The notes under the pieces were generated by a model that did no database searches, was not told where the DNA came from, and was given only the letters and a program-made list of their open reading frames with translations. A DNA stretch of 63,170 nt, the filler included, from Collodictyon triciliatum (lineage: Eukaryota): assembly GCA_043381765.1 (NCBI GenBank). It is 5 parts of 5 records of this genome, joined end to end, with 100 filler letters (N's around TTAATTAATTAA, not from the genome) between each part and the next. Parts side by side here need not be neighbours in the genome. Positions count along the whole stretch, not along the records: positions 1 to 12,591 come from JBHJMP010002141.1; 4 more parts are not named here. One strand, given 5' to 3'. Of this stretch, positions 98-25,344 are shown one piece after another; the first letter of the stretch is position 1, and every line of letters starts with the position of its first letter. The position numbers and the translations under genes are program-made.

Positions 98-948
98 AAG
101 GGGAATAAAAAAAGGCCTCGGGCTCAAGCCATCGGCCCACGGGCAGCAAGATTATTATGATTATAGTGTTCAGTATTAGTTGCTCGGATTCATTTATCTT
201 TTCTTTTTTTTCTTTTTTCTGTTTTCTTCGGTCTCATTCAGCCTGTAAATGGATATACTCCATAACAAAGGTTGTGACGAGCTTGGTTTTATCCCTCTCA
301 AGGCACAACACTTTTTATACAACGAAAGTGTACCCATATATAGCAATTTATTGCACAGACAACCATCGAGTTAAATCTTGATTGCAAAAGCAGAGGCATT
401 GATGAATCCAAGAAACAATCTGAATAATACAACAGTATGATTAGTATAAAATAAAATAAGGTTAAAACTACTTAATAATCATTCTATTCATGTAATCAAT
501 TTATATTTTATTTTCCATTTATGCAATATCACTAAAATTAAAAAATTAAAAAGAAACCCTTGCCTTGGCCTAGGCAGAACCCGCCCTATAAACCTGCCAC
601 CAAATATGCATTCCAAAAAAGCATACTATCCACACTTGCGGCGGTAATCATGTTGTTTGGGGCTGATATGTTGACTTTCAGTCTCAATGGCGAAACAGCC
701 GTCCTTTCGAACTCGCCGAATCGGCTCTCAGTGTTTTGTCATAAATCACTTCTAAAAAAACTTGGTGTGTTCCTTTGCCACAATGCGCACATTTTGAGAG
801 CCTCGGCAGATGCTTAATTTTACCTAAATTGATTTTGTGCAGTTTTTTTTTTATTGTTAAATTGACTGATTGACTAATTGAGTAAAGTTTTATTCAAATT
901 GAAAACTCGGTAGTTTTCTAAAGGAAAAAGTAAAACAAAGACTTTCAG

Positions 949-2835
949 ATGAAGAAAAGAAAACGTCTTGAGTCTGAGAATATAAAGTCTGTAAAACCAC
1001 ATTATCGAAATGTGAAAACATCTCTAAAGTCGATTGTAAAGAATGCGGATGATTATTGCAAAATCGATGATACGGTTTTATTGTGTCATAACTTGGTTAC
1101 CGACACTTATCTGTTTGCAAGATGTTACATGTTGAAATCATGACAACTTCCCAACAATCGATGAAATGTTTTTTTTTTTTTTTTTTGTACGCTTTAGAGA
1201 CAGTCGGAGTAGATTCACAAGATAGACCCACAAGATTAAAAACCAGATATGAGATATGGCATGGTGACTTTTTATCTATATGATTTTCGATTCCTTTTGT
1301 CCCGAGAAGAGCGCTTTCCGTTGGTTAGACTGTCTCATGTATCACCGTACTTGGCGAAGCAAATGTTAACAGCTTATCATAATAGCATTAAGGAACATTT
1401 TGTAAAGAGGTTACTGCGCTTTATAAATCAAACAGTTCCTGAAGATGACAATGTTACGGAGCTATCAAAAAGCCAAAGTTACGAAAGTTAAAACAGCCAT
1501 CTTCAAGAAACTCGAAATACTGGAACAATATAAAGAATTAGGCTACAACGCGTTTGCATCATATCATTCCCAGCGATATTGTAAAAGGTATCGAATATGA
1601 CGTCAAAGCCAATCCAAATAAGTACATTCCATATGTGATTTACATGAATCGCATTTTTTAGGACATCGGAACCAAAAACTGTTTCAACCAATCTCTAAAA
1701 GAACTAATTATTTACCATGTCATATTACCCTAGATGCCACATGTTTGATATAGCTATTATAATTAACTGGAAAAACATCATCAATGAAGAATAAATCAGG
1801 ATGAAAAGAGACCCTATGGAATGACTTCTTTGAAATGAAGAAGAGAGTCTTTCATCAAATAGACTACAGTTTTAAATACATGATACAAACAGACAGCTTG
1901 GCGGTGTCATTATTGTTTGAAAAGAAAGGTATTTCAAATTCAAGATTCAAATATAACCAAAAAACCCCCAATAATATGTTTATATAGATGAACTTTCCGA
2001 AGAACAGTTATCCTGATTAGAGACAAAAAAAATATAGCTGGAGTGAATGCAGGCAAGTTTAATTTGGTTTACACGGTAGATGAGAAAGGTAAGAAATTAC
2101 TTTACTCGGCACAAAGAAGACATGGCAGCAAATCTCCTAAAAATCACAAAATACTCTTGCGAAAAAAAAAGAAGAAAAGTACAATTATTCAGCGATATAC
2201 ATGGCAACAGGTTTACAATGTGCTATTTCTTTTGGTGCCATGACTTTTGAAGAGAATGAGTAGCTTGAGATATCAAGAGTATCTTTTATCGATTTAGAGA
2301 CAGAACTGAGTAAGCATAATTCATGCACTGTCGATTATGAAAAAATTTCGAGAGTATTATCCATGACATCAAGATTCCAGATAGAACTACCCAGATTTTA
2401 TAAACAAGTAACTTTTCGAAAGATGGGATAGAGACACTATGTTAATACAAAAAGTGAAGAATTGTTTATGAACCGAATCGAAAAGACATTTGGCAAGGAT
2501 GTTGTACTGGTGAATGGAGACTGGAGCAGAAAATGTCTGATGAAACATTTAATTGCAACAATTGGAAGAGGATTACGAAAAATACTATCCAAACGCTTTG
2601 AAACAGTTAGTGTGGATTAATTCAGAACCTCCAAGATGAGTTGTAACTGCGAAAAAGAATAGGAATATATGACACCGAAAGGAAATTCAAAAAAAGTATA
2701 TAGATGTCTCATATGTAAAGAATGCAATCGGCCAGAAGGCAAACAAAGTGCATTCTTGACAACGGACTTTAACAGCTCTAATAACACTCAAGAAAGGTCT
2801 TTTAATCCTTCAAAATATTCATACACCTTTCTCTA
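949..2835 (+). pseudogene. Fanzor1 (TnpB-like RuvC RNA-guided endonuclease), copy 1, with many stops and frameshifts; ~620 codons
   Basis: Broken ORFs read MKKRKR..YRNVKTSLKSIVKN, MIQTDSLAVSLLF, GVNAGKFNLVY (RuvC-I), NGDWSRKCLMKH, VD*FRTSKMSCNC (Glu codon is TAA at 2618-2620), CLICKEC, LTTDFNSSNN (RuvC-III). Confidence 0.88.
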
Positions 2836-2841
2836 AAAAAT

Positions 2842-2964
2842 AGGCTGTCGGGTCTTTCCCCTGGTAGCCTTTACCACTACTCGACCTCTTTGTGAAAAAA
2901 GTGGTGAGACCTTGGAAACTAGCGGACGAAGTTTACCAGTCGAAAGATGGTATATCTCTTCTAG
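2842..2964 (+). ncRNA. Putative Fanzor omegaRNA scaffold, copy 1
   Basis: Conserved in three copies. Hairpins aggctgtcggg/cctggtagcct, ttaccact/agtggtga and taccagtc-GAAA-gatggta, plus closing actag/ctagt. The 5' boundary is uncertain. Confidence 0.7.
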
Positions 2965-3122
2965 TAAAGAAAAAAAGAGCAAATCTTCTCCTAAAAGCTC
3001 TAACCAATCGACGCCAATCAATATAGTCATACCTTATCCTATAACCCAACAAAGAAGGGGAACAAAAGAGAGAACTGGGAATTATGGGCACGATCATCAA
3101 GTTACGAGCGGCCACAAAACTG

Positions 3123-3164
3123 ACAGATCACACAGATCACACAGATCACACAGATCACACAGAT
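3123..3164. repeat. Tandem 10-mer (ACAGATCACA) x4
   Basis: Direct observation. Confidence 0.9.
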
Positions 3165-3632
3165 AAGAGTAGTGACGGATAAGCTGTCCGCAGGAGCAAA
3201 CCAGACGCACAAATGAGCAGCTATTCCAAGTCGCGCTCGCTCTTCCACCAACTCGCCCCGGCAGCAATCCTGGAGGACGATCACGAAGCAGATCCATCAA
3301 ACAACTCAAACGAAGCTGGTCCAAAGGCCAGATCGGAGCTTGACTTGGAGCCGAAAAGCCAGACTGTGCGGGGCAGAACGGAAACAACGACGCTGCCGCA
3401 GGGCATTCAGTCCCGTTTTTTTGCTCTGCGCGACTCTTTTCGGGCCCGTCGCATCTCTGACGGCTCCCGAACAAATCGCACTCGCTCGGCCTTGTTGCAG
3501 GAGCCTTTTTCCTCGGATCCTGCAAGTCTGTGCCCAAGCCTCTGGAACAAAGACGCCTTCTCCCCTTTGTCCGAAGAAACAAGTTTGTTTAGATTCTTTT
3601 GCTCACATGTCAAATATATAATTTTATCGATA

Positions 3633-5120
3633 ATGAAGAAAAGAAAAANNNNNNNNNNNNNNNNNNNNNNNNNNNNNNNNNNNNNNNNNNNNNNNNNNNN
3701 NNNNNNNNNNNNNNNNNNNNNNNNNNNNNNNNNNNNNNNNNNNNNNNNNNNNNNNNNNNNNNNNNNNNNNNNNNNNNNNNNNNNNAAAAAGACATCTTCA
3801 AGAAACTCGACATACCGAACAATATAAAGAATGGGCTATAACGCATTTGAATCGTATGATTCCCAGCGATATTGTAAATGATATCGAATATGACGTCAAG
3901 GTCAATCCAAACAAGTACATACCATGTCTGATTTACACGAATCGCATTTTTGAGGACATTGGAGCCAAACTGTTTCAACCAATCTCTATAAGAACTAACA
4001 ATATACCATGTCATATTACTCCAGATACTGCATGTTTGATAGATCTATTAGTATTATCTGGAAAAACATTGTTAATGAAGAATATATCAGGGTGCAAAGA
4101 GGCCCTATGGGATAATTTCTTTGAAATGAAGAGGGTCATTCATCATAGAGACTACAATTTTAAATACATGATACAAACAGACGGCTTGGCGGTTTCATTA
4201 CTATTTGAAAAGAAAGGTATTTCAAATTAAATATACAATTTAATTAAAGACCCAAGAATATGTCTATATTGATGAACTTTCCGAAGAGCGATTATCTTTA
4301 TTAGCGAAAAAAAAAATAGTTGGAGTGGACGCTGGCAAGCTTAATTTGGTTTACATGGTGTGTGAGACAGGTAAGAAATTACGTTACACGGCACATCAAA
4401 GAAGACATGATAGCAAATCTCTTAAAAATCACAAAATACTCTTGCGCGAGAAAAAGAAAGTACAATTATTCAGGGATATGCATGTCAACAGGTTTACAAA
4501 GTGCTGTTTCTTTTGGTCACAGGACTTAAGAAGAAAATCAGCAGTTTGAGACATCAAGAGCATCTTTAATCGATTTGGAGACAGAACTGAGTAAACATAA
4601 TTCATGCACTGTCGATTATGAAAAATTTCGAAAATATGTATCTATGAAATCAAGATACCAGATAGAATTATCCAGATTTTATGAAGAAACTTTTCGAAAG
4701 ATGATAAGGAGATAACATGTTAATACAAAAAGAACCGAACTATTGTTTATGGACTTAATCGAAAAGACACTTGGCAAGGATGTTGTACTGGTCTATGGAG
4801 ACTGGAGCAGAAATTCTCAGATGAAACATTTTATGCCAACAATCGGAAGAGTATTACGAAAAATACTATCCAAATGTCATGATACCATTAGTGTAAATGG
4901 ATTTAGAACCTCCAAGATGTGCTGCAACTGCGAAAAAGAACTGGAATATATGAAACTGAAAGGAAACTCAAAAAAAAAAGTGTATAGATGTCTCATATGT
5001 AAAGAATGCAATCGCTCAGAAAGCAACTAAAGTGTATTCTTGACAAAGGACTCTATCAGCGCTAATAATATGATCAACAAAGTTCTTTTAATCCTTCAAA
5101 ATATGCAAACACCTTTAAAA
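3633..5120 (+). pseudogene. Fanzor1 copy 2, with a gap in the 5' part and stops/frameshifts
   Basis: MIQTDGLAVSLLF, GVDAGKLNLVY, YGDWSRNSQMKHFMPTIG, VNGFRTSKMCCNC..CLICKEC, LTKDSISANN; colinear with copy 1 from ~3786. The 5' start is uncertain because of the N gap. Confidence 0.88.
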
Positions 5121-5123
5121 AAC

Positions 5124-5244
5124 AGGCTGTCAGGTCAGTCCTGGCGGCCTTCACCACTACACGACCTTTGTGAAAAAAAGTGGTGAGACTTAGGATACTA
5201 GCGCACCAAGTTTACCAATCGAGAGATTGGTATGCCCCTTCTAG
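5124..5244 (+). ncRNA. Putative Fanzor omegaRNA scaffold, copy 2
   Basis: aggctgtcagg/cctggcggcct; tcaccact/agtggtga; perfect taccaatc-GAGA-gattggta; tactag/ctagta. Confidence 0.7.
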
Positions 5245-5612
5245 TAAAATATGTGTTCTTGGACAGACAAGGTACAATAGTTATTTTGCACTATGCTGCT
5301 GTGCAATGTGCCCACCCTTCAATATCACTACATCCATCGAAATATATGATATTCGGTTCATTAGTTGAAACAGTACATGTTCACACTGTATACTTGACTC
5401 ACGTCTGTCATTTGACATGTGGGCTATAATACCCCATTGAATTATTGAGAAACTAAAAGTTTGATTGATTAACCATCTTCATCCCAAATCGGTGGCAGAA
5501 TATGCCATGAACAAGTATATTCGATGGTATTTTTATATAAGTAATAATGATATAATTATCCCTGTCGCCGCCTACATAACGAAAAAAATACGATGTTGTC
5601 CACATAAGCAGC

Positions 5613-8842: not shown

Positions 8843-10081
8843 TCAAGAAAACAAGGGCAGGAAGGATTCCTCGTTATGTGTCCTGCGAATCGCCTCAGCC
8901 AGAAGCCGGGCCACGTTGCAGACAACAATCTTTTGCGATGCAGCAGCAGCGTTTTCGGACGAGATGGCCACCGTATTTGTCACAAAGACACGCTCGATTT
9001 CAATCCTGTTGATAATCTCCAGCGCGCCGGCAGAAAGCAACGGGTGAGTAGCACAGCCGACAAAGCGAGTCGCACCTGCTTTCTTGAGCGCCGCAACCGA
9101 TCTTTGGAAAGTGTGGCCAGTGTCGATGATATCATCCACAATAATCGCCTCCTTCCCATGCACATCTCCAATCACCGCGCCCGGGTCGTCCTCCGCAGAA
9201 GCCGCACTCTCCTCTGCCTTGGGCATGATGCGAAGCGCCGAGGGCGAGAGGGGATTGCCATACGCGCTCTTGGCCGAGTGCTGCGTCCCTGGAGTGATGT
9301 TCATATCGCTGGATCGGTTGTCGATGATGGCGAGCGATGCGTTCAGGCGACGAGCCACGTCTCGGGCCCGCTCAACGCTCCCTGAGTCTGGCGCCACAAC
9401 CACCAGGCGGTCTGGGCTAGCCAAGGCCGGCTGCAGCCGCTTGAGCTGGTCCACAAGCACCCCGGAGGCCATCAAATGGTCCACGGGGAGGTCAAAGAAG
9501 CCCTGGATTTGCCCCGCGTGCAGATCGATAGTCAGGAGGCGGTCAATGCCGGCCACCTGGTAGAGGTCCGCCACGAGCTTCGCAGAGATCGGGACGCGAG
9601 GGGCGGTCTTGCGGTCCTGCCGGGCATATCCGTAGTACGGGACAACGGCCGTGATTCTGCGTGCAGAGGCTCGCTTGATGGCGTCGATCAGAAGGAGAAG
9701 CTCCATCAGGTGGTCGTTGACGGGTGGGGATGTGGATTGAATCACAAAGACGTCTGCGCCTCGGATGTTTTCGTGGATGTGGACGCCAAGCTCCCCGTCA
9801 GGATGGCGAATAAGCTCCAGTTTCCCCAGAGGAACTCCCAGGCGCTGGCAGACCTCCTTGGCCACGGTAATGCTCGCATTTCCGGCAAAGATCTGAAACG
9901 GCACTTTACTTTAATATGAAAAACAGCGTTCGGTAGGGCGGTTTTGGCTGACTTGGTTTTGTTCTGCTGTTTCTTCTTCCTTTTTGGAGGGCCAAAGAAT
10001 GTGTGGAATAACAAAACAAAATAAAGTGCAAACATGATAGTCTGTTGAGTGTGTTTGAGGTACCTTGATTTCGTAGCCCAT
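8843..10081 (-). CDS. prs: Ribose-phosphate pyrophosphokinase (PRPP synthetase) family protein, 2 exons (10081-10064, 9892-8843), 355 aa
   Basis: Splicing GT(10063)..CAG(9893) gives MGYEIK|IFAGNAS; motifs ENIRGADVF, VPYYGYARQDRK, DLHAGQIQGFFD, IIVDDIIDTG, ATHPLLS. Confidence 0.93.
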
Positions 10082-12591: not shown

Positions 12592-12691
12592 NNNNNNNNN
12601 NNNNNNNNNNNNNNNNNNNNNNNNNNNNNNNNNNNTTAATTAATTAANNNNNNNNNNNNNNNNNNNNNNNNNNNNNNNNNNNNNNNNNNNN
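12592..12691. other. Artificial scaffold linker N44-TTAATTAATTAA-N44
   Basis: Identical 100-bp spacer with stops in all six frames; occurs four times. Confidence 0.97.
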
Positions 12692-25244: not shown

Positions 25245-25344
25245 NNNNNNNNNNNNNNNNNNNNNNNNNNNNNNNNNNNNNNNNNNNNTTAATTAATTAA
25301 NNNNNNNNNNNNNNNNNNNNNNNNNNNNNNNNNNNNNNNNNNNN
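25245..25344. other. Artificial scaffold linker
   Basis: N44-TTAATTAATTAA-N44. Confidence 0.97.

What the first reader, a model, noticed from the sequence alone, without database searches (positions are those of the whole stretch)
2842..2985. Structured omegaRNA-like 3' module with structure-preserving substitutions and a sharp guide boundary
Seen: stem 1 stays paired in all copies. Copy 3 has aggctgtcggg/cctggcagcct, copy 2 aggctgtcagg/cctggcggcct (G-U to A-U and U-A to U-G), and copy 1 has G-C to G-U. Stem 2 is tcaccact/agtggtga. The terminal stem keeps a GNRA loop (GAAA, GAGA, GAAA) and is enclosed by tactag/ctagta. Homology stops abruptly after CTA(G/T)TA at 2966, 5246 and 56105. The flanks then differ: aagaaaaaaagagc, aaatatgtgttcttgg, caataaagcactacg. 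In copy 3 the ORF C-terminus runs into the module. Inference: this is a scaffold plus flank-derived guide, as in TnpB/Fanzor.
Basis: partly seen in the sequence, partly recalled or inferred. Interest (0 to 1): 0.85.

Follow-up and report, generated by a model that had tools for sequence, protein, structure and literature searches.

The report
Decayed Fanzor transposon with guide-RNA tail
The structured 125-base stretch is the shared right end of three broken copies of a Fanzor1 (eukaryotic TnpB-like) mobile element and most likely encodes its guide-RNA scaffold, a known kind of system seen here only as relics.

Summary
Three copies of a roughly 2-kb repeat (84-86% identical) share a 125-nt 3' module. 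It folds into an 11-bp stem, an 8-bp stem, and a GNRA-type hairpin inside a 6-bp closing stem. Similarity ends within 1 nt of CTA(G/T)TA at 2966, 5246 and 56105, and a fourth flank from a metagenome contig agrees.

The repeat encodes a Fanzor1 pseudogene. Its pieces hit the solved Parasitella and Spizellomyces Fanzor1 proteins, and the module sits where Fanzor1 omegaRNAs lie, on the sense strand at the gene's 3' end and ending at the right end.

In 56 of 160 related giant-virus and metagenome loci I found an analogous 3' box with a sharp boundary. In 23 of the distinct boxes I aligned, one hairpin covaries.

- No change is double-sided.
- 9 of 12 stem changes keep pairing by wobble and 3 break it.
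- The module is no better conserved than the decayed ORF.

All three genes have stops and frameshifts, and all lack the catalytic RuvC-II glutamate.

There is no RNA evidence, and the left end and TAM are undefined. A Helitron-like end (CTAG|T with a subterminal hairpin) remains a compatible rival.

Verdict: a new member of a known kind, of modest interest.

The parts
950..2966 (+). Copy 1: Fanzor1 pseudogene element. ATG at 950, right end at 2966, left end not defined.
   Evidence: tblastn places P0002 residues 2-165 at 955-1437 and further pieces up to 2806. Stops and frameshifts are present throughout. Homology to copy 3 covers 1184-2968.
2842..2966 (+). Copy 1 3' module (putative omegaRNA scaffold). 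Stem 1 is 2842-2852/2860-2870. Stem 2 is 2871-2878/2900-2907. Closing stem is 2917-2922/2961-2966. Hairpin 3 is 2934-2952.
   Evidence: Sequence. Fold -38.9 kcal/mol, z -1.97. Covariance model R1 scores 136.9 bits.
2967..2985 (+). Copy 1 flank, the putative guide-encoding stretch.
   Evidence: Similarity to the other copies is at the random level after 2966. That it is used as a guide is inferred, not shown.
3786..5246 (+). Copy 2: Fanzor1 pseudogene. Its 5' part is lost in the N gap 3649-3785.
   Evidence: tblastn places P0002 residues 197-602 at 3820-5114. At least 2 frameshifts and in-frame stops at 4713-4715 and 5028-5030.
5124..5246 (+). Copy 2 3' module, the best-preserved one. Stem 1 is 5124-5134/5140-5150. 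Stem 2 is 5151-5158/5179-5186. Closing stem is 5196-5201/5241-5246. Hairpin 3 is 5213-5220, loop GAGA, 5225-5232.
   Evidence: Fold -47.1 kcal/mol, z -4.86, with 0 of 200 shuffles as stable. R1 scores 155.3 bits. The frame reading EKSGET ends TTC TAG TAA exactly at the right end.
5247..5266 (+). Copy 2 flank, the putative guide-encoding stretch.
   Evidence: Unrelated to the other flanks. Contig depth falls to 0 in bin 5279-5400 in all four runs.
56105..57893 (-). Copy 3: 5'-truncated Fanzor1 pseudogene abutting another repeat.
   Evidence: blastn aligns 56127-57893 to copy 1 1184-2946. tblastn places P0002 residues 93-610 here. The junction is described.
56105..56228 (-). Copy 3 3' module. 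The right end reads CTATTA.
   Evidence: Fold -41.9 kcal/mol, z -2.63. R1 scores 143.2 bits.
56085..56104 (-). Copy 3 flank, the putative guide-encoding stretch.
   Evidence: Unrelated to the other flanks.

Best explanation
The module is the right-end portion of a Fanzor1-carrying mobile element, and it most likely encodes the scaffold of that element's omegaRNA.

**Proposed mechanism (inferred by analogy with SpuFz1 and TnpB)**
- The sense transcript of the element's 3' end folds into stem 1, stem 2 (an SL1-like hairpin) and a terminal composite stem-loop whose 3' strand is the last 6 nt of the element.
- The RNA runs on for roughly 14-21 nt into whatever DNA lies beside the insertion.
- A Fanzor1 protein binds the scaffold and uses that flank-derived tail as a guide. 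It cuts matching DNA next to a TAM, which would be sites lacking the element.

**What is shown here**
- The gene is a Fanzor1.
- Three copies carry the module.
- The predicted fold is stable on the sense strand.
- The boundary between conserved and variable sequence is sharp.
- Relatives carry an analogous 3' box.

**What is inferred**
- Transcription, processing, protein binding, guide use and the TAM.

The three copies in this window are relics. Each gene has stops and frameshifts and lacks the catalytic RuvC-II glutamate. Any activity of these RNAs would need an intact family member elsewhere in the genome.
For: **Protein identity**
- phmmer with the 139-aa piece gives 1450 hits at E<=0.001. 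Many are 600-700 aa long, with the match near the C-terminus.
- The piece hits Parasitella Fanzor1 (E 8.6e-9), SpuFz1 (E 3.7e-6) and GtFz1 (E 0.0068) directly.
- P0002 hits SpuFz1 at E 9e-37.
- tblastn of P0002 covers all three copies.
- The zinc-finger CxxC...CxxC and the RuvC-I and RuvC-III Asp motifs are readable.

**Position and geometry**
- The module is on the ORF strand and overlaps the ORF end.
- The right end lies 195 nt after the RuvC-III Asp codon, against 210 nt in relative L081.

**Boundary**
- Three window copies plus one contig flank and zero contig depth beyond the end.

**Structure**
- 97.1% of cells pair.
- The sense strand is more stable than the antisense strand in 3 of 3 copies.
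- 9 of 12 stem changes keep pairing, p about 0.001 to 0.02.

**Relatives**
- 56 of 160 fetched loci carry a conserved right-end box followed by unrelated flanks.
- In an alignment of 23 of the 41 distinct boxes that have the upstream TTGATTTTAC-type motif, the adjacent hairpin has double-sided changes in 4 of 4 pairs.
- The folds are a short stem-loop plus a long composite stem-loop reaching nearly to the end.
- In some relatives the ORF stops upstream of the conserved box, so the box is conserved as nucleotides rather than as protein.

**Published model**
- Passages of PMC10432273 and PMC11423790.
Against: - No pair shows a change on both sides, and three cells are unpaired.
- With three sequences the shuffle control cannot discriminate.
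- The structure was partly chosen on these same sequences.
- The module is not more conserved than the decayed ORF: 22% against 21% variable columns.
- The module lies inside what was probably coding sequence, so part of its conservation could be protein-level.
- Covariance model R1 finds nothing in the 160 related loci, and Rfam has no match. RNA-level homology to any characterised omegaRNA is therefore not shown.
- The left end and TAM are undefined. No terminal inverted repeat like that of SPu-1 was found.
- All three genes are dead, and the catalytic Glu is Gly, Gly and stop.
Confidence: 0.7

Rival explanations
1. The terminal hairpin and the CTAG end are a transposition signal of the carrier element, for example a Helitron-like 3' terminus with a CTRR end, a subterminal hairpin and insertion 5' of a host T. 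On this reading the structure serves DNA-level termination or recognition and is not a guide-RNA scaffold. It could also be true together with the omegaRNA reading.
For: - The element ends CTAG followed by T in 3 of 4 flanks, and CTAT followed by T in copy 3.
- Hairpin 3 ends 8 nt before CTAG.
- No terminal inverted repeat was found.
- Copy 3 is 5'-truncated with an intact 3' end. Passages of PMC3627910 report the same for Helitron2-borne Fanzor1 families, along with capture of Fanzor1 by Helitrons.
Against: - The structured region is 125 nt with four helices, far more than a 16-20-nt Helitron hairpin.
- Conserved G.U pairs and the greater stability of the sense strand fit RNA better than DNA.
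- No 5' TC end could be checked because the left end is undefined.
- None of the 10 ORFs of 166 aa or more that I scanned in the window hit a Rep or helicase family. The window was not searched exhaustively for one.
- Relatives end with a different box, GGTGTAA(A), not CTRR.
Confidence: 0.15
2. The module has no RNA function. It is simply the C-terminal coding sequence and last bases of a decaying repeat. The stems are fortuitous, and the wobble-only changes reflect the transition bias of neutral decay.
For: - Variability equals that of the pseudogene body.
- There are 0 double-sided changes and 3 broken pairs.
- The ancestral frame appears to run to a TAG at the right end.
- 169 of 294 substitutions in the element are transitions.
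- If half of random changes kept pairing, 9 of 12 would give p 0.07 and 6 of 9 would give p 0.25.
Against: - Four helices with 97% of cells paired, against 35-52% in slid controls.
- z down to -4.86, with 0 of 200 shuffles as stable, in the best copy.
- The expected pair-keeping fraction from the element's own spectrum is 0.29, not 0.5.
- Homologous genes elsewhere carry a demonstrably covarying RNA hairpin at the same place.
- Characterised Fanzor1 genes have omegaRNAs there (PMC10432273, passages).
Confidence: 0.15

Closest known systems
SpuFz1 / SPu-1 element of Spizellomyces punctatus (Fanzor1 with omegaRNA; PDB 8GKH)
   Same: - Element of about 2 kb with a single Fanzor1 ORF.
- Protein homology: direct E 3.7e-6, and E 9e-37 through relative P0002.
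- A structured RNA scaffold at the 3' end reaching the right end, with the guide taken from the flank.
- No pseudoknot is needed. The layout is SL1 plus a guide-proximal stem-loop (passages of PMC10432273 and PMC11423790).
   Different: - SPu-1 has 30-33-nt inverted repeats, putative TA duplications and a CATA TAM. No inverted repeat was found here, and the TAM is unknown.
- The SpuFz1 scaffold is 75 nt and lies downstream of the stop codon. Here the module is about 125 nt and appears to lie wholly inside the ancestral ORF.
- No sequence similarity between the RNAs could be tested, because no omegaRNA sequence was available to me.
Fanzor1 genes of giant-virus and aquatic metagenome contigs (loci L001-L160; P0002 family)
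   Same: - The closest full-length relatives found, at 44-53% identity.
- A conserved 3' box overlapping or following the ORF end, a sharp boundary, predicted stem-loops, and similar distance from the RuvC-III Asp to the end.
   Different: - Their box, TCGGCGTTTKAAAT..GGTGTAA(A), is absent from the window.
- Model R1 does not find them.
- Their genes are mostly intact, whereas the window's are not.
Helitron2-borne Fanzor1 families CRe-1, 2, 3 of Chlamydomonas (Bao and Jurka 2013, PMC3627910)
   Same: - Non-autonomous elements carrying only a Fanzor1 gene.
- Copies 5'-truncated but intact at the 3' end.
- A 3' subterminal hairpin and no TIR (passages).
   Different: - The defining 5' end, the asymmetric terminal repeats and a RepHel partner could not be examined here.
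- The end here is CTAG|T, which is of Helitron1 type.
TnpB omegaRNA (reRNA) of IS200/IS605
   Same: The logic is the same: the scaffold is encoded at the 3' end of the nuclease gene up to the right end, and the guide is the adjacent flank.
   Different: - This is a eukaryotic Fanzor1 protein with a relocated RuvC-II glutamate.
- No TnpA is present.
- No Rfam family matched at gathering thresholds.

Membership tests
Fanzor1 (protein) | Significant sequence similarity to experimentally characterised Fanzor1 proteins | tested here: met
   Window piece against PDB: PpFz1 E 8.6e-9, SpuFz1 E 3.7e-6, GtFz1 E 0.0068. P0002 against SpuFz1: E 9e-37. tblastn of P0002 on all three copies.
Fanzor1 (protein) | RuvC-I Asp, CCCC zinc finger after the [TS][TS] motif, and RuvC-III Asp | tested here: met
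   VGVDAGK and VGADAGK in copies 2 and 3 (Asn in copy 1). RTSKMCxNC...CLICKEC. F-L-T-R/K/T-D.
Fanzor1 (protein) | Catalytic RuvC-II glutamate (SpuFz1 E541, the E of xEFRTSK) | tested here: not met
   Gly in copies 2 and 3 (VNGFRTSK) and a stop codon in copy 1. All 14 relatives in alignment A4 have Glu. Position mapped onto SpuFz1 and PpFz1.
Fanzor1 (protein) | Intact open reading frame | tested here: not met
   Every copy has several stops and frameshifts. The longest open pieces are 83, 147 and 139 aa.
Fanzor1 omegaRNA | Encoded on the sense strand at the 3' end of the Fanzor gene, with the scaffold ending at the element's right end | tested here: met
   The boundary is at 2966, 5246 and 56105, to within 1 nt.
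Fanzor1 omegaRNA | Conserved scaffold followed by copy-specific sequence (the guide) | tested here: met
   Three copies plus one contig have unrelated flanks.
Fanzor1 omegaRNA | Conserved secondary structure supported by covariation | tested here: inconclusive
   35 pairs, 97.1% of cells paired, 9 wobble-keeping and 3 breaking changes, 0 double-sided changes, only 3 sequences.
Fanzor1 omegaRNA | Transcript extending about 14-21 nt beyond the scaffold and bound by the protein | not testable with these tools
   No run on record as RNA holds the stretch. The runs laid are contigs of uncertain kind.
Fanzor1 omegaRNA | TAM next to the left end and matching the target | not testable with these tools
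   Only copy 1 keeps its 5' part, so the left end cannot be delimited.
Helitron (carrier element) | 3' CTRR end inserted before a host T, with a subterminal hairpin | tested here: met
   CTAG|T in copies 1 and 2 and in one contig. CTAT|T in copy 3. The hairpin ends 8 nt upstream.
Helitron (carrier element) | 5' TC end after a host A, and a RepHel-encoding autonomous partner | not tested
   The left end is undefined. No genome was available. Only 10 window ORFs were scanned against Pfam, with no Rep or helicase hit.
SPu-1-type (TIR/TA) Fanzor element | About 30-nt terminal inverted repeats | tested here: not met
   No inverted match of the right end occurs upstream of copy 1. Caveat: only one decayed 5' region was available.

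The most novel reading that the evidence does not exclude
This is a high-copy Fanzor1 family of a freshwater eukaryote with three unusual features.
- Its omegaRNA scaffold is about 125 nt and is unlike both the giant-virus type box and, as far as could be judged, the SpuFz1 scaffold.
- The scaffold lies entirely inside the coding sequence, and the stop codon is the TAG of the terminal CTAG.
- The same terminal hairpin and CTAG|T end double as a Helitron-like transposition terminus.

On this reading one RNA/DNA element would serve both rolling-circle termination and RNA-guided targeting. Intact, active copies would exist elsewhere in the genome.
Probability: 0.15. Interest if true: 0.55.

Novelty: new member of a known kind. 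Interest (0 to 1): 0.3.

Why it matters
Fanzor nucleases with their omegaRNAs are compact eukaryotic RNA-guided DNA cutters, and each new scaffold type widens the set available for study.

This family appears abundant in two sequenced organisms: hundreds of contigs in two small runs match it at 80-100%. Its scaffold differs in sequence from that of its nearest relatives.

If intact copies exist, the family would offer two things:
- A test of how far an omegaRNA can overlap the coding sequence.
- A test of whether Fanzor1 rides on Helitron-like carriers.

As seen in this window it is three dead copies. The immediate value is annotation: these 2-kb repeats are Fanzor1 relics, not host genes.

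Tried and rejected
**Searches that found nothing**
- Rfam at gathering thresholds over the whole window: no hit.
- Covariance model R1 built from the three copies: no further copy in the window, none in 80 giant-virus loci, none in 80 metagenome loci.
- Metagenome scan with the single 139-aa piece: 107 pattern matches, none confirmed. The second scan, with alignment A4, worked.
- DNA pattern of the module in viral contigs: 0 matches.
- The same pattern in genome contigs: the machine gave no answer twice.
- RNAalifold on the wide 48-sequence alignment of relatives: 0 pairs, because the alignment was too gappy. It was replaced by a narrower one.

**Tools or data not available**
- Whole genome: none is held.
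They list Fanzor loci and might already include this family.

**Sequencing runs**
- No RNA holder is listed. All 9 runs hold only small shares of the words, 0.05-0.08.
- The contigs laid cannot show transcription, ends or strand.

**Weak or negative results on specific ideas**
- Pfam on the pieces gives only sub-threshold Cas12f1-like_TNB (16 and 15.3 bits against a cut-off of 26.3). NCBIfam gives nothing relevant.
- No TIR was found between the right end and the region upstream of copy 1.
- I considered a closing helix TTTAC/GTAAA in the relatives. RNAfold predicts it in only 1 of 5 sequences folded, so I dropped it.
- The roughly 2.28-kb spacing of copies 1 and 2 suggested a tandem duplication. 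This cannot be judged, because the 5' part of copy 2 is in an N gap and the sequence between the copies is not repeated.

Full report
**What is in the sequence**

The window looks eukaryotic.
- GC content is 29-52% in 2-kb windows, mostly 32-39%, and microsatellites are frequent.
- It carries a PRPP synthetase gene and a SKIP/SNW gene.

It holds three copies of a roughly 2-kb repeat:
- Copy 1 on the + strand ends at 2966.
- Copy 2 on the + strand runs 3786-5246. Its 5' part is lost in an N gap at 3649-3785.
- Copy 3 on the - strand runs 57893-56105.

The copies are 84-86% identical pairwise.

**The fold**

RNAfold predicts the same architecture in each copy on its own:
- an 11-bp stem 1;
- an 8-bp stem 2 directly abutting it;
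- a 6-bp closing stem whose 3' strand is the last six bases of the repeat;
- inside the closing stem, a 7-8-bp hairpin with loop GAAA, GAGA or GAAA(G).

The free energies are -38.9, -47.1 and -41.9 kcal/mol, with z-scores of -1.97, -4.86 and -2.63. The reverse complements fold less well in all three cases, at -36.5, -40.7 and -37.3 kcal/mol with z-scores of -1.71, -2.47 and -1.10. This fits the G.U pairs that exist only on the sense strand.

**The boundary**

After CTAGTA (CTATTA in copy 3) the copies match at 7, 11 and 8 of 30 positions. That is the random level of about 27%.

I laid contigs of four public runs on 900-5400 at 80% likeness.
- 29, 184, 401 and 382 contigs matched, so the family is abundant in at least two sequenced organisms.
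- Depth was zero beyond 5279 and between 3165 and 3768.
- One contig diverged right after 2965, giving a fourth, unrelated flank.
- All four runs read T at 2917, so copy 1's mismatch in the closing stem is private to that copy.

The end of homology is therefore real to within one base.

**How strong is the 'structure-preserving' signal?**

On the three-copy alignment with a 35-pair structure, 97.1% of 104 cells are standard pairs. With the partners slid, 35-52% are.

Of the changes at paired positions:
- Nine change on one side and stay paired through wobble.
- Three cells are unpaired: A.C in stem 2 of copy 3, and A.A and C.U in the closing stem of copies 1 and 3.
- None changes on both sides.

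With three sequences the shuffle control is uninformative.

I used the element's own substitution spectrum (169 of 294 changes are transitions) to set a baseline. A random change at a paired site would keep a pair about 29% of the time.
- Nine of 12 gives p about 0.001.
- Without the two pairs I added myself and one alignment-dependent pair, 6 of 9 gives p about 0.02.
- If the true baseline were 0.5, neither figure would be significant.

The module is not better conserved than the rest of the repeat: 27 of 121 columns vary, against 277 of 1325.

The signal is suggestive, not decisive.

**What the repeat encodes**

All three copies are riddled with stops and frameshifts, but the open pieces are clearly Fanzor1.
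- The 139-aa piece 56315-56731(-) finds 1450 proteins at E<=0.001 among 1.84 billion. Many are 600-700 aa long, with the match near their C-terminus.
- The same piece hits the solved Parasitella parasitica Fanzor1 (E 8.6e-9), Spizellomyces punctatus Fanzor1 (E 3.7e-6) and Guillardia theta Fanzor1 (E 0.0068).
- The full-length relative P0002 (634 aa) aligns to all three copies at 36-53% identity per segment. In copy 1 the alignment starts at residue 2, at position 955, so copy 1 starts with an ATG at 950.
- P0002 matches SpuFz1 over residues 14-607 at E 9e-37.
- Pfam gives only a sub-threshold Cas12f1-like_TNB hit on the pieces.

The motifs read as follows:
- The RuvC-I Asp, the CCCC zinc finger and the RuvC-III Asp are all readable.
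- The relocated catalytic glutamate is the E of xEFRTSK. It maps to the Glu of LDEYKTS in SpuFz1 and of IDEFRTS in PpFz1. It is Gly in copies 2 and 3 and a stop in copy 1. All 14 relatives I aligned have Glu.

These are dead genes.

**Where the module sits relative to the gene**

- In copy 3 the frame with the RuvC-III motif runs 50 nt into the module.
- The frame that reads EKSGETLDTSG resembles the GEKVGQSVDFTVG tail of P0002. It stays open to within 3 nt of the right end in copy 3.
- In copy 2 that frame ends TTC TAG TAA exactly at the right end.
- I infer that the ancestral ORF ran through the whole module, with its stop in the terminal CTAG.
- The right end lies 195 nt after the RuvC-III Asp codon in copy 2, and 210 nt after it in relative L081.

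**Relatives**

Back-translated scans fetched two sets of loci:
- 80 loci from giant-virus contigs, about 50% identical in the C-terminal piece, chosen from 262 confirmed stretches.
- 80 loci from metagenomes, chosen from 520 confirmed stretches.

Model R1 finds none of them, so the window's scaffold sequence is its own.

In 56 of the 160 loci, however, the gene is followed or overlapped by a conserved box, TCGGCGTTTKAAAT..GGTGTAA(A). After the box the flanks are unrelated.
- Forty-one distinct boxes also carry an upstream TTGATTTTAC-type motif. I aligned 23 of them.
- In that alignment the hairpin next to the motif has double-sided compensatory changes in all 4 predicted pairs, in 4, 13, 7 and 9 sequences.
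- Single-sequence folds give a short stem-loop plus a long composite stem-loop reaching nearly to the end, with z-scores of -3.3 to -5.4.
- In some loci (L091, L094) the ORF stops upstream while the nucleotide box persists.

The clade to which the window's gene belongs therefore carries a structured, sharply bounded 3' RNA module. That is independent support for the reading, though not for this particular fold.

**Comparison with what is published**

I read passages of three papers, not the whole texts.
- Saito et al. 2023 (PMC10432273). SpuFz1 lies in a 2.1-kb locus. A 75-nt conserved region reaches the right-end inverted repeat. Native small RNAs run 14-15 nt beyond it into variable sequence. 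That 3' flank acts as the guide, and the TAM is CATA. Some omegaRNAs overlap the gene. GtFz1, NlovFz2 and MmeFz2 loci lack inverted repeats.
- Xu et al. 2024 (PMC11423790). Fz1 omegaRNAs share a 7-bp SL1, followed by a variable region (one to three stem-loops) before the guide.
- Bao and Jurka 2013 (PMC3627910). Fanzor1 has been captured by Helitron, Mariner and other carriers. Helitron2-borne families have 5'-truncated copies with intact 3' ends.

The window's module fits this model in position, strand, boundary and general layout. Stem 2 is a candidate SL1, and the terminal composite stem-loop is the guide-proximal element.

It differs in three ways: the length of about 125 nt, the full overlap with the ORF, and the lack of a detectable terminal inverted repeat.

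**Rivals**

*A Helitron-like end.* The end reads CTAG followed by T in 3 of 4 flanks (CTAT followed by T in copy 3). A hairpin ends 8 nt upstream. No TIR was found, and copy 3 is 5'-truncated. All of this fits a Helitron-like terminus. It may coexist with an omegaRNA function, or it may explain the terminal hairpin alone. The 5' end and a RepHel partner could not be examined.

*Neutral decay of coding sequence with fortuitous stems.* This is made less likely by the slid-partner controls, the z-scores and the relatives. The three-copy data alone do not exclude it.

**Limits**

- No genome is held for this window.
- No run on record as RNA holds the stretch.
- Supplementary files of the papers were not consulted.
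- The left end, TAM, transcription and protein binding remain untested.

**Verdict**

The thing is a new member of a known kind, a Fanzor1 element with its omegaRNA-type 3' module, present here only as relics.

Noticed in passing
window 12592-12691, 25245-25344, 37889-37988, 50530-50629: Four identical artificial-looking linkers (44 N, TTAATTAATTAA, 44 N) split the window into five pieces of 12541-12591 nt, each ending in microsatellites. The window seems to be a concatenation of separate contigs, so copies 1 and 2 (piece 1) and copy 3 (piece 5) need not be neighbours in the genome.
   Followed up: partly
window 33547-35125 and 57877-59375: A 1.5-kb inverted repeat pair (83-90% identical) of unknown nature; two ORFs in it have no Pfam hit. 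One copy abuts the truncated 5' end of Fanzor copy 3. The 17-nt junction matches the paralogous site at 15 of 17 positions and the interior of copy 1 at 13 of 17, which suggests a microhomology-mediated junction.
   Followed up: partly
L001-L160, e.g. L081:3421-3503: Giant-virus and metagenome Fanzor1 loci share a right-end box, TCGGCGTTTKAAAT..GGTGTAA(A), found in 56 of 160 loci. A covarying hairpin lies upstream and the flanks after it are unrelated. This is probably the omegaRNA scaffold of that clade.
   Followed up: partly
L109:919-947: A second copy of the right-end box lies about 2.7 kb upstream of the one next to the Fanzor gene. It lacks the upstream TTGATTTTAC-type motif and is not the box beside the gene. 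It may be a 'ghost' omegaRNA-like site.
   Followed up: no
window 4896-4898 (copy 2), 56429-56431 (copy 3), 2618-2620 (copy 1); approximate codon positions: The catalytic RuvC-II glutamate codon reads GGA (Gly) in copies 2 and 3 and TAA in copy 1. Whether Gly was already present in an active ancestor (a nuclease-dead Fanzor) or arose during decay cannot be told from three copies.
   Followed up: partly
window 1025-1046 and 2750-2771: A 22-nt, 86% complementary inverted match links the N-terminal coding region and the RuvC-III region of copy 1. It may be chance.
   Followed up: no
window 1165-1187: A run of about 22 T interrupts the N-terminal coding region of copy 1, just where homology to the truncated copy 3 begins.
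   Followed up: no
window 8843-9904 (-): An intronless 353-aa ribose-phosphate pyrophosphokinase ORF sits in a 52% GC island within otherwise 33-38% GC DNA.
   Followed up: no
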